From the IMG/VR virus record IMGVR_UViG_3300028835_001449, positions 6,859 to 70,858 of that record: a stretch of 64,000 nt of DNA; one strand, given 5' to 3'. The notes under the pieces were generated by a model that saw only the letters and a list, made by a program, of their open reading frames with translations, had not been told where the DNA came from and made no database searches. The translations under genes and the position numbers were made by a program. The stretch is from a virus. Shown piece by piece: positions 36,303 through 61,707 of the stretch. Numbering within the stretch: position 1 is the first letter of the stretch; every line of letters begins with the position of its first letter.

Positions 36303-36481
36303 AATGTTTTCCTCTCCCGCTTCCAATGTCGGCACGCCGACATTGTTGGTCTTACCTTCTTCCGTCTCACCTTATGGTTCGTACAATACCACTCGCCGAA
36401 CTCAGCTCGCATCTTTTCAAGGCAAGTTGGAAGAACTAAGAACCAATGACAATTTTCGCACTTCTTTAAGCACTTCTTCAA
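36284..36481 (-). CDS. Small Cys-rich protein
   Basis: CENC...C...C..H...C; overlaps both neighbours. Confidence 0.4.
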   Translation of the reverse strand: MKKCLKKCENCHWFLVLPTCLEKMRAEFGEWYCTNHKVRRKKVRPTMSACRHWKRERKTLWPKTS

Positions 36482-39266
36482 CTGATAACCTCTTTAAACA
36501 ATCTGCATAATCAATATTCTCCTTCTCCCGATGAGGAGCATCGCCAAAACACAATGTCGAAAAATCACAAAAATCTTCCTCCAATGTTTGACAATGACCC
36601 TGAATCGGAATCATCGAAGGAAACATCTTAATAAATACCCTGCCATCACGATTACTGAATATTGTTAAGACCGGCTTGTCCAAAGCCCCTGCTACGTTTG
36701 ATATACCTGTGTCGGGGGCGATAACAAAATCACACTCGGAAATGAGTGCCGAAGCATGCCGGAATGAATAAGGATAAGCCCCAGACATTAACTTCTTTTT
36801 CTCATCAAGCACAATAATAGATAGACTCTCATCCTTCAATGCCCTAACTAACTCTTTCATATATGGCCATGTCTTCAGCTTGTTGCTTGCGGTCTGAGTA
36901 ATACAAACTTTCTGACCCTTCGGCAGAGTCTTCCACATATCTCTCGCCCACTGTGCTTCATGCGGAAGGACAAAATAATCTGGCTTTAGTCCATCCTTGA
37001 CACCCAACATATCGAGATAAATCTGCGTCCTCGGCCGCTGAATATGCCCAAAATTTTGCATCTCCTGAAGCTCTACCCTGAATTCTAAATCTGTCAAATC
37101 TATTGAATAGTCGCCAACTTGTCTCGAAATACTATCACTCACCTCATCAATATATGGATAAGATTGAAGAAGGGTCACGAACTCAGTTGGCACTACGTAA
37201 ATAACTGTGACTGCCTGTCCGAACTGCTTCTTTAACGCCCTTGCCACAACTGTTATGAAAATGATGTCGCCATAGCCGCCCATTGCGCGCCTGACAATTA
37301 CACGACACTTCTTCTCCCTCTCGATTATCTGATTTATCTCTTCGATAACGGTCATCCCTTTCACCCGAGTCTGCCATTCAATGCCCAAATTTCCAAGCCT
37401 CTGCTCTTCGTGAGGAAGAAATCCCCACTTCTCCTTATACCGCTTAATATTCCGTGCCCAGGTGACATCCTTGGTTCTCTTCGCCTCCACATTCATTGAT
37501 TCGACGGCGCCGAGAGCATGATAAAACAAAGCCTGACTTGAATGTAGAAACTTCTGACCAGCAAGTCGAATTCGAAGTGTGTAATCATTATCCTCGATGT
37601 ATCTTGGGGTGAAGCTCTCATCAAACTTACCCACTTTTTCAAGACACTCCCTTGACAAGAGCGTTGCTGAATACGAACCCGCAGGAATATCTACAATTTC
37701 CTTCGTCTCCCAATCCGCATCTGATACGCCTTCATCAACTGCCCAAGGAGGAACATTTTTAATGGGACTAGACATACATCCAAAACACCCAGTCTTATCT
37801 GCTACGTTAATCAAGACATCCAATGTATCATAGCGAAGAACGAGGTCATTATTTAACAAAATCATATACTTGTAATTGCCCTTCAAACACTCATCAATAC
37901 CGATATTCTGAGCGCTTGCGACACTCGACTGCTTGGACACAAACTTAATGCCCTTCTCTTTCAACCATTCCTGAGTGCCGTCCGTTGACACATTATCCAC
38001 AACAAACAGATCATAGTCATGCCAACACCGAATTGATGCTATTGCCTTCTTCGTAAAAGATAAGAGATTGAAAGTTAACATTACGAGCAGTACACGCCGT
38101 GTATCTGTCTTCACCCGTTCAATCTCCGCTAACACAGTACTTGGATCGAGTGCCTCTAAACACTTCGAATACCCACCATCTTCTTTTTCTTTTGTTGACC
38201 TGCCTGGAATGCAGTCGAGTTTATGCCAGCAGGGTTGCTTCTTTAATTTAACTGTGCATGGTGCCTGAATAACCGATGCCTTCTCATAATCCTCACAGAA
38301 AATGTGACCATCTGTCGGGCCGTAAATGCCAATAATCTTTTTGTCCAGTGCTCCTGCCAAGTGTGAGTGAAGCGAATCATTAGTGACGACAATATCACAC
38401 TGTTCTATTAACGCTGCCAGTTCTCTAATCGTATATTTAAAAGTAAAATCTTTTTCCCCCGTTTCATCAAGAATAATCACACCATAATCCCGTGTGCTAA
38501 GTTCCATAGCCACGTCAGCCATGAATGGATATGTCTTTGACCGAACGGATGCTCTCGTCTGAATTCCGACTAACGGGCGACGCAGCTTTCCAACAAACTT
38601 TTTTGCCCATTTTCGCTCGGCTGAAGACACGATGTATACCGGGCGTTTATCTATTGGATATAAGCCTAGCTGTGCTAAATAAATTGCCGTCCTGTTCTTT
38701 CTATGCCGTTTCTTTTCCCAATCCTTCGGTTCGCACTTCAACTTGACATTATCTGTGTTAAGCAGGACATCATAACCCTTTGGTGTTTTCCCCTCTTCGA
38801 TAATATAGATGTCACGAACGTATGGATTGAACTTCCAAAACGGCAGATATAACCTTGGAATCCGAATATCAACTATAGCTCGATCACCTAAAACATCCTT
38901 ATATGCCTTTGGAATTGCTGTCGCAAGTACATGATCTCCTCTATTCCCCACTGTCCGTTCAAGCAGAACAGTAACTTTGCCTTTCCTATCAAGCATCGCT
39001 TCTGCGTCCTTCTGGGCATTCCATAATTCGGGGCTGACAAAGTAAGCTGGAATATCCATCTTCTCCACGGTGTCCTTGAACTTTGTCTCACCGGGCATGA
39101 CTGTTATCGGATCGCGATTAGAGTCATAGTAAACCTGTGGAGCTTTGCTCGTATTTGCATATAATAACCGCTTATACGACCGATAAAAACCTGTACCTTT
39201 TGCTCCCAATTCCGTTCCTAACTTTTCCACATTACTTTCTCCAATGCTGAATTTACTGCTTCCCAA
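36417..39266 (-). CDS. Multidomain glycosyltransferase: shared N-terminal motif + GT9 + GT2 + GT9
   Basis: GNRGDHVL...NDSLHSHLAGA..K..IGIYGPT; VVDNVSTDGT, LLNND, YIEDND; GGYGDII...PDTGISNVAGA. Confidence 0.88.
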   Translation of the reverse strand: MGSSKFSIGESNVEKLGTELGAKGTGFYRSYKRLLYANTSKAPQVYYDSNRDPITVMPGETKFKDTVEKMDIPAYFVSPELWNAQKDAEAMLDRKGKVTVLLERTVGNRGDHVLATAIPKAYKDVLGDRAIVDIRIPRLYLPFWKFNPYVRDIYIIEEGKTPKGYDVLLNTDNVKLKCEPKDWEKKRHRKNRTAIYLAQLGLYPIDKRPVYIVSSAERKWAKKFVGKLRRPLVGIQTRASVRSKTYPFMADVAMELSTRDYGVIILDETGEKDFTFKYTIRELAALIEQCDIVVTNDSLHSHLAGALDKKIIGIYGPTDGHIFCEDYEKASVIQAPCTVKLKKQPCWHKLDCIPGRSTKEKEDGGYSKCLEALDPSTVLAEIERVKTDTRRVLLVMLTFNLLSFTKKAIASIRCWHDYDLFVVDNVSTDGTQEWLKEKGIKFVSKQSSVASAQNIGIDECLKGNYKYMILLNNDLVLRYDTLDVLINVADKTGCFGCMSSPIKNVPPWAVDEGVSDADWETKEIVDIPAGSYSATLLSRECLEKVGKFDESFTPRYIEDNDYTLRIRLAGQKFLHSSQALFYHALGAVESMNVEAKRTKDVTWARNIKRYKEKWGFLPHEEQRLGNLGIEWQTRVKGMTVIEEINQIIEREKKCRVIVRRAMGGYGDIIFITVVARALKKQFGQAVTVIYVVPTEFVTLLQSYPYIDEVSDSISRQVGDYSIDLTDLEFRVELQEMQNFGHIQRPRTQIYLDMLGVKDGLKPDYFVLPHEAQWARDMWKTLPKGQKVCITQTASNKLKTWPYMKELVRALKDESLSIIVLDEKKKLMSGAYPYSFRHASALISECDFVIAPDTGISNVAGALDKPVLTIFSNRDGRVFIKMFPSMIPIQGHCQTLEEDFCDFSTLCFGDAPHREKENIDYADCLKRLSVEEVLKEVRKLSLVLSSSNLP

Positions 39267-55390: not shown

Positions 55391-55422
55391 AGAGGACAAA
55401 TCACCGTCTCATTGACAGTTGA

Positions 55423-55851
55423 TTACTTTGGTTTCTTCTTTTGAAGCTTCCTCGTCGCTTCTAAAATGGGCAGATTCGCTTCTGTCGGGACATATATGAT
55501 TTCACTTGACCCGTCATGAAGCCCCTGAATCCAGAGATACCGTAAGTACGCTTCATTCTTTTTCAAACTCTCGCCGATAATTTTGTTGGCCTCGGCTACG
55601 CCCTTTGCCCTCTCTACTTCCGCTACCGCCAACAACGTTGCTGACTCTTTCTTGGCTTCCGCTTCCTGGATCGCAATTTGACGATTCCACTCTGCCTGCT
55701 TCAGCTGAGCCTTCCCTTTAAGCTCTTTCTGCCAGACATTGTACGTGGGACATCCCCACATACCGAGAGTAATTGTTATTATCAGAGCAACAATTCCTAC
55801 AATTACCCATCGTGTGACGCTAGACTTTTTTTGTTGTTCATTGCCTAACAT
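55423..55851 (-). CDS. SPFH/band-7-related membrane protein
   Basis: TM then P.YNVW, AEVERAKGVAEANKIIGESL, YLRYLWI, IYVPTEANLPILEA. Confidence 0.7.
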   Translation of the reverse strand: MLGNEQQKKSSVTRWVIVGIVALIITITLGMWGCPTYNVWQKELKGKAQLKQAEWNRQIAIQEAEAKKESATLLAVAEVERAKGVAEANKIIGESLKKNEAYLRYLWIQGLHDGSSEIIYVPTEANLPILEATRKLQKKKPK

Positions 55852-55940
55852 ACCTTCACCTCCTTGTCTTTATTATCGCCGGAGCCCACCTAGAGATTTG
55901 AACCCAAACATAGCAACCCGGGCAGGCTCCAACATTATTA

Positions 55941-56135
55941 TCAAGACGCCGCCCAAGCAATCCGTGTTCGGCCTCGGACGTCGGTAAAACGACGCTTTGG
56001 ACGGCGCCTAATGTGACGGGAGACAGGTTTGTGTATGGGCACAAACCTTCTTACCTGTGCGTTTACACAAGCGTTAATCAATCTTAAGGGGGAAGTTATG
56101 ACCAAGACGATCTTCGCCTCCTCGTCACATTTCAT
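55941..56135 (-). CDS. Hypothetical protein
   Basis: ATGA-coupled ORF. Confidence 0.35.
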   Translation of the reverse strand: MKCDEEAKIVLVITSPLRLINACVNAQVRRFVPIHKPVSRHIRRRPKRRFTDVRGRTRIAWAAS

Positions 56136-56479
56136 TTCTTTTCATTATCTTCTGGCTCTACCTTTTCTCTGCTATCTCCAACACCGTACTGATGAGATTG
56201 TGTGTCTGGCGGGGTCATTGCCTGCTCATACCTATTAACAATCGGCATTATCTTATCCAGTTTTTCACTTATGGGCATAAGTTCATTCTTTATAACTATG
56301 CAGATTTGATTCATATAGTGTGTGAGCGTGAAGACATTTACTATTAATGTGATTGTCGTAACTGTGAGTATGAAAACCCAGATAAGGACTATAGGCAAGA
56401 TGACGGACTTTTTGACCTCTCTTTTTGCCATTTTCACCCTCCTTTTGAATCGAAGTTTAAATACGCGCCATTTACTCAT
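56132..56479 (-). CDS. Single-TM hypothetical protein
   Basis: Hydrophobic helix; coupled. Confidence 0.55.
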   Translation of the reverse strand: MSKWRVFKLRFKRRVKMAKREVKKSVILPIVLIWVFILTVTTITLIVNVFTLTHYMNQICIVIKNELMPISEKLDKIMPIVNRYEQAMTPPDTQSHQYGVGDSREKVEPEDNEKK

Positions 56480-56688
56480 CGGCTAAACATACCTAATACT
56501 TTACCGATCCAGAAAACCGAAAAGGCATAACCTATAAACATTATCGATAAAATAAACCGCCCTGTTGGCTCCCACTCTGGTCTAAACATTACTATTGGTG
56601 TCCATGCCACGACCAACATGATGGCACAAGACGCCATAATTGTCCACATAAGTAGCCGAGTCAAAGTACGAGTTGTCTTATCTTTCAT
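56476..56688 (-). CDS. Two-TM hypothetical protein
   Basis: Two hydrophobic helices; ATGA coupling. Confidence 0.55.
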   Translation of the reverse strand: MKDKTTRTLTRLLMWTIMASCAIMLVVAWTPIVMFRPEWEPTGRFILSIMFIGYAFSVFWIGKVLGMFSR

Positions 56689-56888
56689 GGCTTCTTCCTC
56701 TTATACGTATTCGCTTTGGCTATTACTTCTATCGGAACCTGCATCAATGTGATTGTCGCCTCGGCTTCGTCCTGCTTCATGCCCATCCGCCATTCAATGC
56801 CTATGACATGCTCTAACATCTCACCTGTTTCTACATTGATGACCTTCGTGTTCATCGCCTTACCGTCACTTACTATTTTTACTTTCAT
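56685..56888 (-). CDS. Small beta protein (KIVSDG...TKVI..ETGE type)
   Basis: AGGAGG RBS; follows JAB gene. Confidence 0.6.
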   Translation of the reverse strand: MKVKIVSDGKAMNTKVINVETGEMLEHVIGIEWRMGMKQDEAEATITLMQVPIEVIAKANTYKRKKP

Positions 56889-56902: not shown

Positions 56903-58117
56903 TTACTTACTCGGACTAATAGGAGAAAAGACCAGACACTTTCCACGCACTTCGGGATCGTCCCTGTCTATGCCCTTCTCACAAATTCCCGACCCACTAG
57001 CGCAATCAAATTCACAATTAACACACTGCACAAGAGCATCTTCCTCGCCTCCAACGTCCTCTGTTTCTTCCACTGGAAATTCATCGTCTGGACGTTCGGC
57101 CATGTCTCTTTGAATATGCTTCCCAAGTCCTCCAAACAACCTGCCTTCATCGTGTAATGAATGTTCCCTGTCGAACGGTTTCCCTATCGTAAAAGGTTCG
57201 ACCACATGACGACGATGGCCCACTTTCTCCTCAAATTCAGCTTTGAGACCTTCCCTTTTCTTCTTTGCCATAACATACTCAACTTCAATAGGAATCTCAT
57301 CCCACGTGCGAGTCATCGGAATCATAGACAGCAACTCAGCGTCAATGTGACTCTCGTCCTTGCTTTCATTAATCGATTTCATTATACGTCCTCTCGTGCT
57401 CGCATCTACCCCTACATCTACTCTGCCTCTCATTCGACCATCAACACACATCACGATACTTACTAACCATCCGCCTGTCTTCACCAAGCGTTTGATTGTA
57501 TCTTCGTCTATGCCCGACCAAAAATTTCCCATCTCAACATGACTATGAACCCAACCATGAATCCGCGCTGCCCTATCTAAATCATCAACGACAAACTTAT
57601 TCATTGCGTCATGATTAAAAGACGCACTCCCGGCATCTGCTGTTTGTTTAATAAGATGAACCTTGATGACATGAAACGTATTTATCTCTCGCTCAACTTC
57701 TGTGAGCATTTGAACCTCACGGGGTTTGGCCATCCTAGCCAAAAGCAACATCGTTTCATATGCTTCCCGTGTAAGCATGATTCTCCATCGGGTAGGGTCG
57801 ACAATTTCAGCTTCGGCTAAATCATCTTCCTTTTCCTCTTCCTCTACTTTCACTTTGATCTCTTCCTCCCCTTTCTCCTTTTTCAATGGCTCCAATTTAC
57901 CGAAATACCCACAATGATTATCCGGGTCAACGATTTGTCCATTCTTCGCCGCCTTGGGATTCCCACATCCTAAACACGCATCTCCTACCTTATCGATGCA
58001 TGAATATACGAAAGCACATATAACACACCGTTCTTTCTCTATCGCTTTCTCCTTTGCGGTCAACGCTTCGGCGACATTAATCCTCTCGAGCTTACCCTTT
58101 TTCTTTTTCTTGGCCAT
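56903..58117 (-). CDS. JAB/JAMM (MPN+) metalloprotease with Cys-rich flanking domains
   Basis: PREV (Glu) and GWVHSHVEMGNFWSGID = HxH-x7-S-x2-D. Confidence 0.88.
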   Translation of the reverse strand: MAKKKKKGKLERINVAEALTAKEKAIEKERCVICAFVYSCIDKVGDACLGCGNPKAAKNGQIVDPDNHCGYFGKLEPLKKEKGEEEIKVKVEEEEKEDDLAEAEIVDPTRWRIMLTREAYETMLLLARMAKPREVQMLTEVEREINTFHVIKVHLIKQTADAGSASFNHDAMNKFVVDDLDRAARIHGWVHSHVEMGNFWSGIDEDTIKRLVKTGGWLVSIVMCVDGRMRGRVDVGVDASTRGRIMKSINESKDESHIDAELLSMIPMTRTWDEIPIEVEYVMAKKKREGLKAEFEEKVGHRRHVVEPFTIGKPFDREHSLHDEGRLFGGLGKHIQRDMAERPDDEFPVEETEDVGGEEDALVQCVNCEFDCASGSGICEKGIDRDDPEVRGKCLVFSPISPSK

Positions 58118-58127
58118 TTATACCTCC

Positions 58128-58829
58128 TTACACTTCTAATTTCATTATTGACAAATCTTTCATACTTATTGCTATATCATGGGTCACTTCGCCATCTTTC
58201 AAAAACTTTCTGACCAAGTTGGTAATGACGGCGGCAACCTGATAACCGACATCTATTATTGACCGAGCGGTGCATGGTAGTTCCTTTATCTCGCCCGGAC
58301 TGAACAAACTTTTCTCATACCAATCATACTTCATCGAATCGTTCACTGGTTGAAGTGATAACACTCTTATTGTCTCTCCGCCCAACCGGGCATCTATGAA
58401 CAACTCTACCTCGGGGTCTGCTTTCATTGACTCCCAAAGCTCTTTTCTACCACACCTTGGGTCCTTTTCTGTGGACTCCATACTATCTACTGCGGCTATA
58501 ACTATGCCCTTGAGCTTGTCATCATCCCAATCCCAAAACTTATTCTTCGTCTTTATTTTCGTACCGGTCAACAATTCTGTCAGCCCTGCTAATGCCCGCA
58601 CTTTTGGATGACCGACTGCTGTAAGAATATGAAACTGATTGGGTACGTTATGATCTTCTACCTTATCTCCATCCCACACTCTAATGTTTTTCAACCCCAA
58701 CTTAGCAAGGGCGACGACTGTAAACGAGCCGATACCACCTGCCCCGACTACTTCGATACGTCTGCCGTTATATGTTTCGGGGTCAAAAATGTCTTTCTGC
58801 CTTTTATAATTTGGCTTTTTTTCGGTCAT
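58128..58829 (-). CDS. ThiF/E1-like ubiquitin-activating enzyme
   Basis: RQ, VGAGGIGS, WDGDKVEDHN..NQ, K, AVDS, IDAR, PCT candidate catalytic Cys. Confidence 0.9.
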   Translation of the reverse strand: MTEKKPNYKRQKDIFDPETYNGRRIEVVGAGGIGSFTVVALAKLGLKNIRVWDGDKVEDHNVPNQFHILTAVGHPKVRALAGLTELLTGTKIKTKNKFWDWDDDKLKGIVIAAVDSMESTEKDPRCGRKELWESMKADPEVELFIDARLGGETIRVLSLQPVNDSMKYDWYEKSLFSPGEIKELPCTARSIIDVGYQVAAVITNLVRKFLKDGEVTHDIAISMKDLSIMKLEV

Positions 58830-60451
58830 AATACCTCACTTGGCTGAGATTTTCTCCTTGGTGCCCGCTTTGTCGCTTCTGCTAAAGTTCGTCCCTGCCC
58901 AGATATAAGATTCGTTACTGTCGTGTACGAATCATCTGGATTATAAGAATTGCAAAAATTCCAAATTACTTGAACGAGTAATAACCAATTCCAATCAGCC
59001 TTGAGCTGATTGATTCCTTTTCTAATAGAACCCCAACAAACTGAACGTCCACCGTCGGTTATATGAGGATGCTGATACTTCGTTTTCATGCCCCATTTTG
59101 TATTCCTAATATTAATTGTTCTTGGGGCTGTCATGCCAATTTTTATTGTGAACCCTCCTATATTATAATACTTAGAATCGGATTTTATAGTCGCATCCGC
59201 TGTTGTGACAACAAGATTATTACGATCTACATCCAAACTTTTCACAAATTCAAAATTCACAATCTCGTTAAACTGATCCTCTATCTGTTTTTGCAATGCC
59301 AAGCGTCTATCACTTGTAGAAGTGTCGAGCAATTTTTTCTTTACTTCAAGTTCTCCTGCAAGCTTTACTGAATTACCGATTATACCTTCCATATGCTTAC
59401 CAACCGGGGCCATTTCCTCAAGCTTTTCTAACACTACATTCACGCTCTGTTCAAACACGGACTCATAATACACCATATTCTTCCCGAACAATCGTCCGTA
59501 CTGTCTGAACACTGTCTGCCGGGCTTTCTTCGCTTCTGGATTCCCATTTAAACTATCCTTTAACGCTTTATAAGATTCAGACAAAAACTTCTCTGCCTGA
59601 TAAATTCCAATGGATGACTGTACGAGGTTAATCGACTGATTATACCGTTCTGCAAGCTGATTAATTTCATCCTTCAACTTAAGTATCATATTATCCGAGC
59701 TTGATAATAGAACGTCTGCAGCTTTCTGAACGATAGATTTGTCGACTCTAACACTTCCTAAATATTGCCTGACTTCTTCCTCGGCTTTCTTAACCTTATC
59801 AGTCTGCGCAGATATTAATCGCTTCCGAGACTCTGACTCATCCAATTTCAAACTTCCGTCTTTTGCAATACCAATATCCCCATGAACAGGAACGGCGGAA
59901 GCTACGGGGGCCCTGAGCTGAAGCTTGTTTAACGCTTCCATCATTGCTTCTCGGGTCTTTGCTCCCTTTACTGCATCTGCGAGTCCTAACCTCGTGTCCC
60001 AATCGATTTTATCTCCTGGGGACGGCATTGCACCGGGTCGTCCAGGACCCAATATTGCCTCTTCAAAGAACTCAGCGATAACATCTCCTACCGGAGTACG
60101 TTCTTCGGCGACCTGAGATTCGGCATCCTCTGTGGATCTTGGAGCCTGGCTAACAAAATCGCCTACTATCCTGCCTACCAAACCTTTACTAGCACAAAGC
60201 TGCAGAAATCCATTCACACTATCCTTATGTACTATTACCTGTTTATTAGTTGCCGATGGAACGACTAACAGACCTTGACTCTTTGCTGCTCTGCCTAGCT
60301 TGGAGATTATTTGACCAGACTCTAACTGCAGAGCATCTATTCCACTGCCCTCTGCAACTGTTATGTTAGCCCATTCTTGTCTGTTCATTCCTGTTAACTC
60401 CCCAAGATATACATTCGGGACATGAAATATTGGGTCAAATTCATCCCGCAT
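58826..60451 (-). CDS. Coiled-coil protein with C-terminal E2/UBC-like domain
   Basis: GGFTIKI...HPHITDGGRSVCWG resembles the E2 HPN-x7-C motif; between Ubl and E1. Confidence 0.72.
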   Translation of the reverse strand: MRDEFDPIFHVPNVYLGELTGMNRQEWANITVAEGSGIDALQLESGQIISKLGRAAKSQGLLVVPSATNKQVIVHKDSVNGFLQLCASKGLVGRIVGDFVSQAPRSTEDAESQVAEERTPVGDVIAEFFEEAILGPGRPGAMPSPGDKIDWDTRLGLADAVKGAKTREAMMEALNKLQLRAPVASAVPVHGDIGIAKDGSLKLDESESRKRLISAQTDKVKKAEEEVRQYLGSVRVDKSIVQKAADVLLSSSDNMILKLKDEINQLAERYNQSINLVQSSIGIYQAEKFLSESYKALKDSLNGNPEAKKARQTVFRQYGRLFGKNMVYYESVFEQSVNVVLEKLEEMAPVGKHMEGIIGNSVKLAGELEVKKKLLDTSTSDRRLALQKQIEDQFNEIVNFEFVKSLDVDRNNLVVTTADATIKSDSKYYNIGGFTIKIGMTAPRTINIRNTKWGMKTKYQHPHITDGGRSVCWGSIRKGINQLKADWNWLLLVQVIWNFCNSYNPDDSYTTVTNLISGQGRTLAEATKRAPRRKSQPSEVL

Positions 60452-60716
60452 CGATGTTGTCTATGCTGACGATCATGTCACCATTTTTGACTATGGCATC
60501 GGTATCGACCTGCCGAGAATTTAAGAAATACTGAACATCATCCCCGCCCTGCAGAAATCCTCTATCGATGAGGTCTGCAATTGTTGCTTCCCTGTCATCA
60601 GGGAGCGTGACGATTTTAGGGGGACGCCCGAGAGCGGCCACTTTTACTGTTCCTCTGGATAACCCTACTTCGTCATTGGTAACTTCTGTTTCATCTCTTT
60701 CATTTTCATCGGTCAT
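60441..60716 (-). CDS. Ubiquitin-like (beta-grasp) protein ending in Gly
   Basis: TVKVAALG..PKIVTL...ATIADLI...YFLN..V..DAIVKNGDMIV..DNIDAG*. Confidence 0.78.
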   Translation of the reverse strand: MTDENERDETEVTNDEVGLSRGTVKVAALGRPPKIVTLPDDREATIADLIDRGFLQGGDDVQYFLNSRQVDTDAIVKNGDMIVSIDNIDAG

Positions 60717-60733
60717 TTTGTTCCTCCTACTAT

Positions 60734-60761
60734 TATATTGTCATAGGTTCAAAACGTTCAC
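60734..60761 (-). promoter_or_regulatory. Phage promoter class A (GTGAAC-N11-ATGACAATATA) driving the Ubl operon
   Basis: Motif conserved at three sites. Confidence 0.72.
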
Positions 60762-61084
60762 AGAACTTCTTTCCTCATTATTGAAAGAAAGCTCGCTACG
60801 TCTATCATATGATTACTCGAGCCTACCTGCTTAATCACTTCTGCTGCCTTCGCCTCGTATGGTATTTCCTGATTCTTCTCCCATTCAGCAAGAACCATTT
60901 CCTGGCCTACGACTATTGACTCTATTAAATGAGCGAGAGTTATCTCTTTCATAGTCTTACCGCCATCAAGAACGACTATCGCGCCCTTATACAGAGCGAG
61001 AAGATAACACGCCCTTTCATACGCTGTGTGTAATTGAGGCGTGCGCTCTAACACTCTTTTATACTCTACCGTCTTCTCACTCAC
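60758..61084 (-). CDS. Hypothetical protein
   Basis: Coupled ORF with RBS. Confidence 0.55.
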   Translation of the reverse strand: MSEKTVEYKRVLERTPQLHTAYERACYLLALYKGAIVVLDGGKTMKEITLAHLIESIVVGQEMVLAEWEKNQEIPYEAKAAEVIKQVGSSNHMIDVASFLSIMRKEVL

Positions 61085-61662
61085 GAATATCTCCTATGCT
61101 TCTCGACCTTCTTTTTGAATACTTCCCAAACATTGACCGAAGAATTTTTAAACACCTGTTTTTGAACCGTCTTCCTGAACAGATAAAAATCCCTATTCGT
61201 AAACGCTTTTCTCATGGTTAAATACTCTGGATTGGCTAACGCACACTTTGAATAACAATTTACGCCTGTCAACAATGGTAACGAATTAAACTTAATACCG
61301 CCTGCTTCTGACAACGGACAATTATTGCAGTCAAGTCCGAACGTCATTGAATAATTACACCAGGGATTTGATGCGGCCATGAGAAACAGCACTTCTAACG
61401 TCCACAAATGCGGTCTGGACGAAATCGACCTCATCCTTGCCACTCTATATGCTGCGATTCTACGCACAAGATCATACCACACAGACCTAGCGGTTTCGAC
61501 CTTCTGGGAATCTGGATTGAGTAATTGTTTCTTCAACGCTGCCTGATAAAAATAGATAAGAGAGCTGAGAGCTTCTCGGCCAGGGTTCGCACAAAATAAC
61601 TCTAACGCCTTATAAAGCTCGGACATCTCATCCGTGATACCAGTCTTCAATTCAAGTTCCAT
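61081..61662 (-). CDS. Hypothetical Cys-containing protein
   Basis: WC...CNNCPL...C..C; downstream of class A promoter. Confidence 0.6.
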   Translation of the reverse strand: MELELKTGITDEMSELYKALELFCANPGREALSSLIYFYQAALKKQLLNPDSQKVETARSVWYDLVRRIAAYRVARMRSISSRPHLWTLEVLFLMAASNPWCNYSMTFGLDCNNCPLSEAGGIKFNSLPLLTGVNCYSKCALANPEYLTMRKAFTNRDFYLFRKTVQKQVFKNSSVNVWEVFKKKVEKHRRYS

Positions 61663-61679
61663 TCGAGTTTCCTCTCTCT

Positions 61680-61707
61680 TATATTGTCATCCGAGCGGAA
61701 CGGTCAC
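61680..61707 (-). promoter_or_regulatory. Phage promoter class A (GTGACC-N11-ATGACAATATA)
   Basis: Motif conserved at three sites. Confidence 0.7.

What the first reader, a model, noticed from the sequence alone, without database searches (positions are those of the whole stretch)
56903..60761. Complete phage-encoded ubiquitin-like conjugation operon (Ubl-E2-E1-JAB) with its own promoter
Seen: four tightly coupled genes behind a class A promoter. They are a beta-grasp Ubl ending ...NIDAG*, a 541-aa protein with C-terminal HPHI-x7-CWG (11-nt overlap with Ubl), a ThiF/E1 with GAGGIG and a PCT cysteine (ATGA overlap), and a JAMM protease with intact E...HSH-x7-S-x2-D. No ThiG, MoaE or cysteine-synthase partner lies nearby, which argues against a sulfur-carrier role. 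Established: E1/E2/Ubl/JAB sets occur in bacteria; the Bil antiphage system conjugates a Ubl to phage tail proteins, and CBASS Cap2/Cap3 use E1-E2 and JAB domains. Inference: this phage carries the whole writer-plus-eraser set to tag host or phage proteins, or to counter host Ubl-based defence. The Ubl already exposes a terminal Gly, so the JAB would act mainly as a deconjugase.
Basis: partly seen in the sequence, partly recalled or inferred. Interest (0 to 1): 0.88.

Follow-up and report, generated by a model that had tools for sequence, protein, structure and literature searches.

The report
Phage-encoded ubiquitin-like conjugation gene module
A tailed phage carries four tightly packed genes for a small ubiquitin-like tag, the two enzymes that would activate and attach it and a protease that would trim or remove it, and the same set recurs in many other uncultured phages, so phages may put ubiquitin-like tags on proteins themselves.

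Summary

- **Ubl:** 91 aa, ends in Gly, models as a beta-grasp.
- **E2L:** 541 aa. Its C-terminal about 150 aa model as a UBC/E2 fold with an invariant HPH...C motif.
- **E1:** 233 aa, single-domain ThiF-type, with an invariant Cys.
- **JAB:** intact JAMM motif.

The domain is UBC-like, and all four genes co-occur in 64 of 80 related viral loci, in at least four gene orders. No fifth gene family is shared by more than 10 loci.

The module is not Bil, CBASS, PRTRC or ThiF/ThiS by the family models tested. Pfam, NCBIfam, PHROGs and PADLOC do not name its E2L or Ubl. My searches found no paper describing it.

It is most likely a self-contained conjugation cascade in which the hypervariable N-terminal part of E2L chooses the targets. 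The targets, the biological role and the promoter remain inferred.

The parts
60732..60761 (-). Promoter-like element: GTGAAC, 18 nt, TATAAT, ending 15 nt before the Ubl start codon
   Evidence: Read. The same layout lies at 61707..61678, also ending 15 nt before an ATG. The pattern occurs 3 times against 0.57 expected. The generic sigma-70 scan does not list it and is not enriched. This is a consensus match only.
60441..60716 (-). Ubl: 91-aa ubiquitin-like beta-grasp protein with an acidic N-terminal tail, ending in Ala-Gly
   Evidence: ORF; GGAGGA lies before the ATG. AlphaFold2 on 42 sequences gives pLDDT 85.8. The best Foldseek matches in PDB are MoaD (E 1.9e-3), TtuB, ubiquitin, ThiS and SAMP1; none has E <= 0.001. 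Homologues occur in 68 of 80 viral loci. 61 of 69 have Gly within the last 4 residues.
58826..60451 (-). E2L: 541-aa protein made of an N-terminal region of unknown fold, a helical region with coiled-coil-like matches, and a C-terminal UBC/E2 domain
   Evidence: ORF. No Pfam, PADLOC, PHROG or NCBIfam family matches. Weak coiled-coil-family matches appear. The N-terminal 200 aa have no usable look-alike. Homologues occur in 69 of 80 viral loci.
58874..59320 (-). UBC/E2-fold domain of E2L (about residues 378-526)
   Evidence: AlphaFold2 on 34 sequences gives pLDDT 90.8 and pTM 0.83. The best Foldseek PDB match is UbcH7 (E 6.1e-4), and every listed row is an E2. VIA-align gives Z 7.8-6.8 over 117-129 aligned residues, and all 50 rows are E2s. 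3 of 34 family members hit Pfam UQ_con, best E 2.9e-5. 344 cluster representatives match at E <= 1e-3.
59030..59071 (-). Predicted E2 active site: H461-P462-H463 ... C472-W-G474
   Evidence: P462, H463, C472 and G474 are invariant and H461 nearly invariant in alignment A2. The family profile aligns this stretch onto the HPN...C stretch of UbcH7. 57 of 75 viral E2L ORFs match [HA]PH-x(4-14)-CxG.
58128..58829 (-). E1: 233-aa single-domain ThiF-type adenylating enzyme with invariant Cys186
   Evidence: Pfam ThiF 46 bits against a cut-off of 28.1. Invariant residues are R10, G29, G31, G32, G34, S35, D53, D55, N61, Q65, K76, D115, R128, R148 and C186. The profile matches E1-superfamily structures, but only over about the first 140 positions. 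270 relatives were found in the protein collection. 216 relatives lie in viral contigs.
56903..58117 (-). JAB: 404-aa JAB/MPN+ metallopeptidase flanked by Cys-rich stretches
   Evidence: ORF. Pfam Prok-JAB E 4.3e-4, 20.6 bits, under its cut-off of 25. The best PDB match is Rpn11, E 0.0037, over residues 107-235. E134, H191, H193, S201 and D204 are kept in 75-77 of 78 sequences. A C-terminal CxxC...C-x-[KA]-G motif is shared with four of seven close relatives, and L007 has a variant.
57413..57799 (-). MPN/JAMM catalytic core of JAB (residues 107-235)
   Evidence: This is the range aligned to Rpn11. It holds E134 and H191-S-H193...S201..D204.

Best explanation
The four genes encode a self-contained, phage-borne ubiquitin-like conjugation cascade.

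**Inferred steps, by analogy with E1/E2 chemistry.**
1. The short E1 binds ATP and adenylates the C-terminal Gly91 of the Ubl. It probably then takes the Ubl onto its invariant Cys186.
2. The Ubl passes to Cys472 in the UBC domain of E2L.
3. E2L transfers the Ubl to an amino group on a target that its own long, hypervariable N-terminal part recruits. E2L would thus be an E2 with a built-in adaptor, and no separate E3 is needed.
4. The JAB metallopeptidase removes the Ubl from targets. In relatives whose Ubl carries 1-3 residues after the Gly, it would also trim the precursor.

**Shown here.** The folds, the catalytic motifs and their conservation, the tight gene coupling, and the co-conservation of exactly these four families across diverse phage backbones.

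**Inferred.** Every chemical step, the adaptor role of the E2L N-terminus, and the targets.

**My odds.**
- About 0.75 that a Ubl is conjugated at all.
- About 0.4 that the main targets are host proteins (takeover or anti-defence). The rest is split between the phage's own proteins and competing phages.
For: 1. **Components are present with intact active sites.**
   - E1: Pfam ThiF above its cut-off, with an invariant Arg finger, GxGGxGS, Asp residues and Cys186.
   - E2L domain: a confident model (pLDDT 90.8). Its best matches among solved structures are all E2 enzymes. The invariant HPH...C aligns to HPN...C of UbcH7. 3 of 34 relatives hit Pfam UQ_con.
   - JAB: E...HxH...S..D kept in 75-77 of 78 sequences, with Rpn11 as best solved relative.
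   - Ubl: a beta-grasp model, with Gly at or near the C-terminus in 61 of 69 homologues.
2. **Co-conservation.** The 80 viral loci were fetched through the E1 alone.
   - Ubl is present in 68, E2L in 69, JAB in 74, and all four in 64.
   - Of the 16 incomplete loci, 8 have the E1 within 1.7 kb of an end of the locus.
   - The genes occur in four main orders, seen in 27, 14, 13 and 7 loci. This argues for selection on the set rather than inherited synteny.
   - No other gene family is shared by more than 10 of the 80 loci.
3. **Negative control.** 34 loci with generic ThiF/MoeB-like genes (L128-L161) have none of E2L, Ubl or JAB next to them.
4. **Adaptor idea.**
   - The UBC domain is conserved, while host proteins range from 114 to about 1,320 aa.
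   - Tandem E2L paralogues occur: five in L057, three in L084, and two each in L018, L040, L116, L119 and L122.
5. **Tight coupling in the window**.
Against: - No biochemical or expression data. No RNA-holding run was listed.
- The window's E2L itself matches no Pfam family, and sequence matches to E2s are weak (E 0.14 for the single sequence, 0.024 for the profile).
- Structural scores are moderate (TM 0.45-0.53; Z under 8, a range the tool warns can arise from common arrangements).
- JAB is under Pfam's cut-off.
- The Ubl looks most like the sulfur carriers MoaD, ThiS and TtuB. One relative's Ubl weakly hits a ThiS model.
- Cys186 could not be mapped onto a known E1 catalytic Cys, because profile alignments to solved E1s stop near position 140.
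- The E1 superfamily also holds enzymes that do not serve Ubls, such as TcdA, MccB and PaaA.
- An 18-locus subgroup lacks JAB, 15 of them from Methylomirabilota. Two of these loci were inspected and sit among housekeeping genes. The family is therefore not tied to phage biology.
- No target or E3 was identified.
Confidence: 0.55

Rival explanations
1. The same cascade serves as a defence or superinfection-exclusion system carried by the phage. It would tag proteins of competing phages, as the bacterial Bil system tags a phage tail fibre.
For: - Bil has the same four kinds of parts and conjugates its Ubl to the phage central tail fibre (abstract of 10.1101/2023.09.04.556158, listed).
- Related modules occur on a non-phage mobile element: L083 sits next to a TraG/TrwB-like coupling protein, a DNA methylase and DUF932.
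- They also occur in chromosomes.
- Viral and MAG E1s interleave on the tree, needing about 12 label changes.
Against: - PADLOC models match none of Ubl, E2L or JAB.
- Where neighbours were named, the module sits among replication, repair and packaging genes: SbcCD, helicases, primase, SSB and small terminase. In the window it lies upstream of the terminase and portal. No lysogeny module was looked for.
- The E1 is a 233-aa single domain, unlike the multidomain Bil E1 (passages read).
Confidence: 0.15
2. The cascade modifies the phage's own proteins, for example replication, packaging or virion proteins, as a maturation or timing step.
For: - In this clade the module lies between DNA-handling genes (ParB-like and HNH-like) and the packaging and head block. 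A small-terminase-like gene follows it in L003.
- Ubl plus JAB pairs are already linked to tail assembly in lambdoid and T1-like phages (Iyer et al. 2006, passages read).
Against: - No structural or replication gene is co-conserved with the module beyond 10 of 80 loci.
- The module sits in unrelated backbones and gene orders.
- It also exists in Methylomirabilota chromosomes without phage genes nearby.
Confidence: 0.15
3. No protein conjugation occurs. The E1 and Ubl act as a sulfur-carrier pair or in another adenylation-dependent pathway, and E2L and JAB have other roles.
For: - The Ubl's best structural matches include MoaD, TtuB and ThiS.
- The E1's best NCBIfam hit is a ThiF model.
- Related genes in isolated phages are annotated 'thiamine biosynthesis protein ThiF'.
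Against: - The ThiF and MoeB model scores are far under their cut-offs (49.8 against 159; 26.2 against 376.55).
- There is no ThiG or MoaE in the record, which is only 54% complete.
- The E1 has no room for a rhodanese or other extra domain at 233 aa.
- A UBC domain with an invariant Cys and a JAMM peptidase are co-conserved with the pair.
- 58 of 69 Ubls carry residues after their last Gly or lack a terminal Gly. This fits precursor processing, although JAB-processed sulfur carriers also exist.
Confidence: 0.05
4. The module is mainly an eraser or decoy against host Ubl-based immunity. JAB strips host-attached Ubls such as Bil-type tags, and the phage Ubl, E1 and E2L titrate or mis-load the host machinery.
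For: - JAB is the most often retained partner in viral loci (74 of 80).
- A 2025 paper proposes that multicopy JAMM-type enzymes of Borg elements counter host tagging (PMC12660748, passages read).
Against: - An eraser alone would not need a conserved E1 and E2 with intact catalytic residues.
- Nothing here links the host of this phage to a Bil-like system, and the host is unknown.
Confidence: 0.07

Closest known systems
BilABCD anti-phage systems (types I and II; operon classes 6d/6c of Iyer et al. 2006 as I map them, where the 6c = type II link comes from passages read and the 6d link is recalled)
   Same: Four separate genes for Ubl, E2, JAB deubiquitinase and E1. The Ubls have a conserved Gly followed by a short variable tail (compared). 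Multi-domain Ubls exist in both.
   Different: - The E1 here is a 233-aa single adenylation domain. Bil E1 has inactive and active adenylation domains plus a Cys insertion.
- The E2 here keeps a His-Pro-His before the Cys, as canonical E2s keep HPN. Bil-type E2s rely on a His after the Cys.
- The E2 here is the C-terminal part of a long variable protein.
- The module here sits in phage genomes.
- PADLOC models match none of Ubl, E2L or JAB.
Type II CBASS Cap2/Cap3 (operon class 6b)
   Same: E1 and E2 chemistry plus a JAB eraser. PADLOC 'E1-E2' (Cap2) models match the E1 Rossmann part, best E 2.6e-10.
   Different: - Cap2 is one E1-E2 fusion resembling Atg7 with Atg3/Atg10, and its substrate is the cGAS-like enzyme rather than a beta-grasp Ubl (passages read).
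- Here E1 and E2 are separate, the E2 resembles canonical UBC enzymes, and a dedicated Ubl is present.
Archaeal SAMP / UbaA / JAMM system and Thermus TtuB/TtuC (recalled; the SAMP, UbaA, TtuB and MoaD names appear)
   Same: A small MoaD/ThiS-like Ubl ending in Gly, a short MoeB/ThiF-like E1 and a JAMM peptidase.
   Different: Those systems work without an E2 (recalled). Here a UBC-fold E2 is co-conserved. The SAMP-activating E1 model scores 27.4 against a cut-off of 450.
Eukaryotic and Caldiarchaeum-type ubiquitin systems
   Same: - A UBC-fold E2 with a His-Pro-x motif before the catalytic Cys. Eukaryotic E2s are the best sequence and structure matches.
- Rpn11 is the best solved relative of the JAB.
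- Caldiarchaeum ubiquitin is among the Ubl's fold matches.
   Different: No large multidomain E1, no RING E3 found, and the Ubl is nearer to sulfur carriers. The third motif residue is His rather than Asn.
Lambda/T1 tail-assembly Ubl (TAPI) with JAB-NlpC/P60 (TAPK) (Iyer et al. 2006, passages read)
   Same: A phage-encoded Ubl with C-terminal Gly next to a JAB peptidase.
   Different: That pair has no E1 or E2 and sits in the tail module. Here a complete activating and conjugating set lies outside the tail genes.
E2/E3 hybrid enzymes such as UBE2O and BIRC6 (recalled, not tested here)
   Same: A UBC domain embedded in a large protein that would itself recruit substrates. This is the working analogy for E2L.
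   Different: No sequence relation was tested. The E2L N-terminal part has no recognised fold.

Membership tests
Prokaryotic E1 + E2 + JAB + Ubl conjugation operons (general kind; Iyer et al. 2006, section read) | E1-like adenylation domain | tested here: met
   Pfam ThiF 46 bits against a cut-off of 28.1. Nucleotide-binding and Arg/Asp residues are invariant. The profile matches E1-superfamily structures at E down to 3e-15.
Prokaryotic E1 + E2 + JAB + Ubl conjugation operons (general kind) | UBC-fold E2 with conserved catalytic Cys and nearby His | tested here: met
   The model has pLDDT 90.8. All listed Foldseek and VIA matches are E2s. H463 and C472 are invariant and align to HPN...C of UbcH7. 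The scores are moderate.
Prokaryotic E1 + E2 + JAB + Ubl conjugation operons (general kind) | JAB/MPN+ peptidase with JAMM motif, adjacent or fused to the E1 | tested here: met
   The motif is present and kept in 75-77 of 78 sequences. JAB is adjacent to the E1 in the window, with a 10-nt gap. The Pfam Prok-JAB score is under its cut-off (20.6 against 25).
Prokaryotic E1 + E2 + JAB + Ubl conjugation operons (general kind) | Small beta-grasp protein with C-terminal Gly | tested here: met
   The model is a beta-grasp. The protein ends in Ala-Gly. 61 of 69 homologues have Gly in the last four residues.
BilABCD (type I / type II) | Multidomain E1 (inactive plus active adenylation domains and a Cys-bearing insertion) | tested here: not met
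   The E1 is 233 aa with one adenylation domain. Relatives are 205-293 aa in most loci. The Bil architecture is taken from passages read.
BilABCD (type I / type II) | Match to defence-system protein models | tested here: inconclusive
   PADLOC gives no match for Ubl, E2L or JAB at E <= 0.1. I did not verify which Bil models that release holds.
Type II CBASS Cap2/Cap3 | E1 and E2 fused in one protein | tested here: not met
   They are separate ORFs, E2L 60451..58826 and E1 58829..58128. Cap2 models match only E1 residues 17-97.
Type II CBASS Cap2/Cap3 | CD-NTase (cGAS-like) substrate and effector genes in the operon | not tested
   No dedicated search was run. The neighbours that were examined are ParB-like, HNH-like and small unknown proteins.
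ThiF/ThiS and MoeB/MoaD sulfur-carrier pairs | E1 reaches the curated ThiF or MoeB model cut-off | tested here: not met
   ThiF NF006395 scores 49.8 against 159. TIGR02356 scores 33 against 275. MoeB TIGR02355 scores 26.2 against 376.55.
ThiF/ThiS and MoeB/MoaD sulfur-carrier pairs | Acceptor enzyme (ThiG or MoaE) encoded with the pair | tested here: not met
   ThiG and MoaE models give 0 matches in the 70,858-base record, while the control genomes match. The record is about 54% complete.
PRTRC (ParB-related, ThiF-related cassette) | ThiF-family member reaches the PRTRC_ThiF cut-off and PRTRC partner proteins are present | tested here: not met
   TIGR03736 scores 31.8 against 144.75. The ParB-like neighbour and the two ORFs between it and the Ubl match no NCBIfam model. 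A ParB-like gene two genes upstream is a superficial resemblance only.
Canonical UBC enzymes (Pfam UQ_con, PF00179) | Sequence match to the family model | tested here: inconclusive
   The window protein has no hit at E <= 1. 3 of 34 relatives hit, best E 2.9e-5. The fold and active-site alignment agree.
Archaeal SAMP system (UbaA E1) | E1 reaches the SAMP-activating E1 model cut-off | tested here: not met
   NF047750 scores 27.4 against 450.

The most novel reading that the evidence does not exclude
Tailed phages carry their own 'writer' of ubiquitin-like marks. A minimal E1 and a UBC-type E2 whose variable N-terminal part acts as a built-in E3 would tag host proteins during infection, disabling defences or redirecting host machinery. 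Tandem and giant E2L variants would then be a target repertoire shaped by an arms race. This would be a prokaryotic-virus counterpart of the way eukaryotic viruses exploit ubiquitination. It would also be a separate lineage of canonical-type (HPx...C) E2 enzymes outside eukaryotes and archaea.
Probability: 0.35. Interest if true: 0.9.

Novelty: new variant of a known kind. Interest (0 to 1): 0.8.

Why it matters
**Current picture.** In the papers I read, bacterial ubiquitin-like conjugation is presented as a host weapon against phages (Bil, CBASS Cap2/Cap3). This module would put the whole toolkit in the phage's hands, and it is not rare:
- 216 E1 relatives in viral contigs.
- 344 clusters of the E2L domain at 50% identity.

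**Gaps it exposes.**
- The E2L and Ubl families carry no name in Pfam, NCBIfam, PHROGs or PADLOC.
- The distant E1 relatives in isolated phages are labelled 'thiamine biosynthesis protein', which probably misreads them as metabolic genes.

**What it would offer if the cascade works.**
- A very small, separable E1-E2-Ubl-protease system to study and engineer.
- A natural experiment in substrate targeting by E2 fusion.
- A new angle on where canonical HPN-type E2 enzymes came from.
- The JAB-less chromosomal version in Methylomirabilota hints at a cellular role as well.

Tried and rejected
- **Close DNA relatives.** blastn of the region against 50,697 phage records found no match.
- **Single-sequence scans of viral contigs.** E2L and E1 each found no relative. 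An E1 alignment was needed.
- **Word-based protein search with E2L.** It found only the protein itself.
- **Complex prediction.** E1 + Ubl + UBC domain, with the UBC domain as the scored partner, returned no verdict: score 0.00, and the controls were not run. This is no evidence either way.
- **Expression.** No RNA holder was listed. The only full holder is run X1, which may be the source of the DNA.
- **E2L N-terminal 200 aa.** There was no usable feature hit, and the structural rows had TM 0.34-0.40 by query. The fold remains unknown.
- **E2L in isolated phages.**
  - tblastn of the UBC domain found no match.
  - hhalign of A2 against the proteins upstream of JAB in FpV4 and cr106_1 gave probability below 1%.
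  - hhalign of A3 against the FpV4 289-aa protein gave probability 2%.
  - My own HMMs found only JAB and E1 there.
- **Genome scan with alignment A2.** A1 was used instead.
- **Catalytic Cys.** Mapping Cys186 onto a known E1 catalytic Cys failed, because alignments to solved E1s end near position 140.
- **tRNAs.** None were found in the window. The host was not identified.
- **Rejected memberships.** PRTRC, Bil, CBASS and ThiF/MoeB (see the membership test).
- **Literature.** Seven answered full-text searches found no paper on a phage-encoded E1-E2-Ubl-JAB set. I also read passages of six papers and one full section. The jumbo-phage survey PMC7824862 has 0 occurrences of JAB, ThiF, E1-like, E2-like or Ubl. 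Supplementary tables could not be opened. Operon lists such as Supplementary Table 1 of PMC10557695 might include phage-borne examples.

Full report
**1. What is in the sequence**

The window is bases 6859-70858 of a 70,858-base virus record estimated to be 54% complete. Every sizeable ORF lies on the minus strand.

PHROG matches identify a tailed phage:
- portal, E 7.6e-42
- head maturation protease, E 2.1e-34
- major head protein, E 1.5e-57
- tape-measure protein, E 4.1e-54
- a weak large-terminase match, E 3e-10

The finding's four ORFs are exactly as described:
- Ubl 60716..60441, 91 aa, ending NIDAG
- E2L 60451..58826, 541 aa
- E1 58829..58128, 233 aa
- JAB 58117..56903, 404 aa

The junctions are tight:
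- Ubl and E2L overlap by 11 nt.
- E2L and E1 overlap as ATGA.
- E1 and JAB are 10 nt apart, with a GGAGG between them.

The packing continues downstream. A 67-aa ORF with its own GGAGG starts 15 nt after the JAB stop. The next terminator-like site on this strand outside a gene is at 55419..55403.

The promoter evidence is as follows:
- GTGAAC, 18 nt and TATAAT lie at 60761..60732.
- The same layout recurs at 61707..61678, at the same distance from an ATG.
- The pattern occurs 3 times against 0.57 expected, and 2 of 100 shuffles reach 3.
- The generic sigma-70 scan is not enriched.

The promoter is therefore plausible but unproven, and the 'operon' is probably part of a longer transcript.

**2. 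The four proteins**

*E1.*
- It passes Pfam ThiF (46 bits, cut-off 28.1, residues 24-103).
- Across 35 family members the invariant residues are R10, G29, G31, G32, G34, S35, D53, D55, N61, Q65, K76, D115, R128, R148 and C186.
- A family profile matches many E1-superfamily structures at E 3e-15 to 1e-7. These include TcdA, PaaA, Uba5, Uba6, ThiF, MccB, MoeB, Uba1, the NEDD8 and SUMO E1s and BubCD. Only about the first 140 positions align.
- So it belongs to the superfamily without clear affinity to one branch, and Cys186 cannot be equated with a known catalytic Cys by sequence.

*E2L.*
- It has no family in Pfam, PADLOC, PHROGs or NCBIfam.
- An exhaustive HMMER search with residues 370-541 found 344 cluster representatives at E <= 1e-3. 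The matched domain usually lies at the C-terminal end of proteins 114-743 aa long.
- In an alignment of 34 of these, G432, P462, H463, C472 and G474 are invariant and H461 nearly so.
- The profile aligns helix 1, the strands and HPH...C onto UbcH7 and its HPN...C (E 0.024).
- 3 of 34 members hit Pfam UQ_con, best E 2.9e-5. The window protein itself does not.
- AlphaFold2 on this alignment gives pLDDT 90.8 and pTM 0.83, with one long helix, a strand meander and C-terminal helices.
- The best Foldseek match in PDB is UbcH7 (E 6.1e-4, TM 0.45/0.49), and every listed row is an E2.
- VIA-align gives Z 7.8-6.8 with 117-129 aligned residues, and all 50 rows are E2 enzymes. The tool warns that Z under 8 can be unspecific, so the case rests on fold, motif and sequence evidence together.
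- In the viral structure library the best matches are uncharacterised phage proteins of 373-1,146 aa, including crAss-like ones. E2 enzymes of giant viruses and African swine fever virus come next.

*JAB.*
- It has the full JAMM motif, kept in 75-77 of 78 sequences.
- Pfam Prok-JAB is below its cut-off (20.6 against 25).
- The best solved relative is Rpn11 (E 0.0037, residues 107-235).
- A Cys-rich C-terminal motif (CxxC...C-x-[KA]-G) is shared with four of seven close relatives, and L007 has a variant. An N-terminal Cys-rich stretch is shared only with L007.

*Ubl.*
- It has no family hit.
- With 42 sequences it models (pLDDT 85.8) as a beta-grasp behind a roughly 20-residue acidic tail.
- Foldseek lists MoaD (E 1.9e-3), TtuB, ubiquitin, ThiS, SAMP1, SUMO and Caldiarchaeum ubiquitin, all at probability about 1.00 but with none at E <= 0.001.

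**3. Co-conservation**

An E1 alignment found 216 relatives in viral contigs, and I examined the best 80 loci. Iterated HMM searches on their ORFs gave the following:
- E1 in 80 loci, JAB in 74, E2L in 69 and Ubl in 68.
- All four in 64 of 80.
- Of the 16 incomplete loci, 8 have the E1 within 1.7 kb of an end of the locus.

The main gene orders are:

| Order | Loci |
|---|---|
| Ubl-E2L-JAB-E1 | 27 |
| E2L-JAB-E1-Ubl | 14 |
| Ubl-E2L-E1-JAB (the window's order) | 13 |
| JAB-E1-Ubl-E2L | 7 |

Clustering all other ORFs found no further family in more than 10 of 80 loci. Where neighbours could be named, they are SbcC/SbcD-like nucleases, helicases, primase, SSB, dUTPase and a small-terminase-like protein. 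The set behaves as a four-gene cassette that sits in different phage backbones.

Of 69 Ubl homologues, 61 have a Gly in the last four residues and only 11 end in it. Typical ends are ...KGGR...AGC and ...KGA. The eight exceptions are four long multi-domain forms and four ending in ...K(S/N)(A/N)N(R).

E2L varies greatly in the examined viral and MAG loci:
- sizes from 152 to 1,320 aa
- five tandem copies in L057
- three copies in L084
- two copies each in L018, L040, L116, L119 and L122
- 1,149-1,320-aa forms in seven loci

**4. Outside phages**

In one-genome-per-species contigs the same E1 alignment found 212 relatives, and the best 80 were kept.
- The 46 loci with a family-type E1 (L082-L127) are all metagenome-assembled genomes from many bacterial and archaeal phyla.
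- 45 of them have E2L, 41 have Ubl and 27 have JAB.
- The remaining 34 loci (L128-L161) include all the isolate genomes. They hold generic ThiF/MoeB-like genes with none of the partners, which serves as a useful negative control.

Eighteen loci lack JAB, and 15 of them come from Methylomirabilota. This state needs only 3 changes on the E1 tree. Two such loci lie among housekeeping genes: an MFS transporter, a SurA-like isomerase and a spermidine-synthase/TPR protein.

One Bacteroidetes locus (L083) lies beside a TraG/TrwB-like coupling protein, a DNA methylase and DUF932.

On a quick E1 tree the family separates from the eight generic ThiF/MoeB rows (SH-aLRT 89). Viral and MAG labels interleave, needing about 12 changes. 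The tree was a short search without bootstraps and has several long branches.

**5. Isolated phages**

tblastn with the E1 found 34 records at about 26-29% identity:
- 29 Flavobacterium psychrophilum phages (FpV4 and relatives)
- four crAss-like records
- one other record

Where annotated, most are labelled 'thiamine biosynthesis protein (ThiF)'; cr106_1 is labelled hypothetical and one record 'ThiF family protein'.

In FpV4 and cr106_1 my HMMs find a JAB gene directly upstream of the E1. They find no E2L or Ubl, and hhalign does not support the candidates I picked by eye. Structural matches to crAss-like proteins keep the question open.

**6. What it most likely does**

The parts, their intact catalytic residues and their co-inheritance fit a Ubl conjugation cascade: E1 adenylates and loads the Ubl, the UBC domain of E2L carries it, and JAB trims and removes it.

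No E3-like gene is co-conserved. The UBC domain sits at the end of long, highly variable and sometimes multiplied proteins. I therefore propose that E2L recruits its own substrates, in the manner of E2/E3 hybrid enzymes (an analogy I recall and did not test).

The targets are unknown. I favour host proteins at about 0.4. The alternatives are the phage's own proteins, or competitors in a defence-like role. A pure sulfur-carrier role is unlikely (together with the conserved E2 and JAB).

**7. Comparison with known systems**

The kind of system is known: prokaryotic E1/E2/JAB/Ubl operons (Iyer et al. 2006, section read), Bil (passages) and CBASS Cap2/Cap3 (passages). This family differs from each in these respects:
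- a minimal standalone E1
- a canonical-type HPx...C E2 fused behind a variable region
- a MoaD/ThiS-like Ubl
- a strong association with phages

It fails the membership features of Bil, CBASS, PRTRC, ThiF/MoeB and SAMP that I could test (see the membership test).

None of my seven answered full-text searches found a description of a phage-encoded complete set. Supplementary tables were not available.

**8. Verdict**

This is a new variant of a known kind of system, of high interest.

Noticed in passing
L091, L093-L100, L107-L110, L112, L114, L115, L117, L125: A three-gene version (E2L-E1-Ubl, no JAB) occurs in 18 genome loci, 15 of them from Methylomirabilota (NC10) MAGs. The loci cluster on the E1 tree, needing 3 changes. 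In the two loci inspected the genes sit among housekeeping genes, which hints at a cellular, vertically kept role.
   Followed up: partly
L057:54-5363; L084:3380-6097; L041, L044, L047, L048, L052, L055, L062: There are tandem arrays of E2L paralogues: five in L057, of which two lack the usual Cys motif, and three in L084. Giant E2L proteins of 1,149-1,320 aa occur in seven loci, next to enlarged Ubls of 140-362 aa.
   Followed up: partly
L162 (Flavobacterium phage FpV4) 3686-5618; L163 (crAss-like phage cr106_1) 3222-5654: Isolated Flavobacterium psychrophilum phages and crAss-like phages have a JAB gene directly upstream of a distant E1 relative. That E1 is annotated as a thiamine biosynthesis protein in FpV4 and as hypothetical in cr106_1, where it carries about 175 extra N-terminal residues. 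The upstream 420-434-aa proteins are E2L candidates by eye and through BFVD structural matches to other crAss-like proteins. HMM and hhalign tests did not confirm them.
   Followed up: partly
L102:4760-11430; L061:67-7607: L102 carries two complete copies of the module (E2L-JAB-E1-Ubl) one after the other. L061 holds two partly duplicated sets.
   Followed up: no
window 61678-61707 (minus strand): A second copy of the GTGAMC-N18-TATAAK layout ends 15 nt before the ATG of the 193-aa ORF (61662..61081). This may be a recurrent phage promoter type.
   Followed up: partly
window 56903-57020 and 57900-58030 (JAB termini): The JAB protein carries Cys-rich stretches at both ends. The C-terminal CxxC...C-x-[KA]-G motif is shared with four of seven close relatives, and L007 has a variant. 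The N-terminal stretch is shared only with L007. Both may be small metal-binding modules.
   Followed up: partly
L083:2475-9996: In a 4.5-Mb Bacteroidetes chromosome the full module lies beside a TraG/TrwB-like coupling protein, a DNA methylase and a DUF932 phage/plasmid-like protein. This is an integrative-element-like setting rather than a phage.
   Followed up: partly
window 55423-56888 (minus strand): Directly downstream of JAB lie four small ORFs of 67, 70, 115 and 142 aa. At least three have hydrophobic, membrane-like stretches by eye. They are tightly packed with the module. phmmer found no homologue of the two that were searched (67 and 70 aa) in the related loci.
   Followed up: no
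window 36417-39266 (minus strand): A 949-aa protein inside the structural gene block matches glycosyltransferase families (phrog_29879, E 1.9e-11). This is unusual for that position.
   Followed up: no
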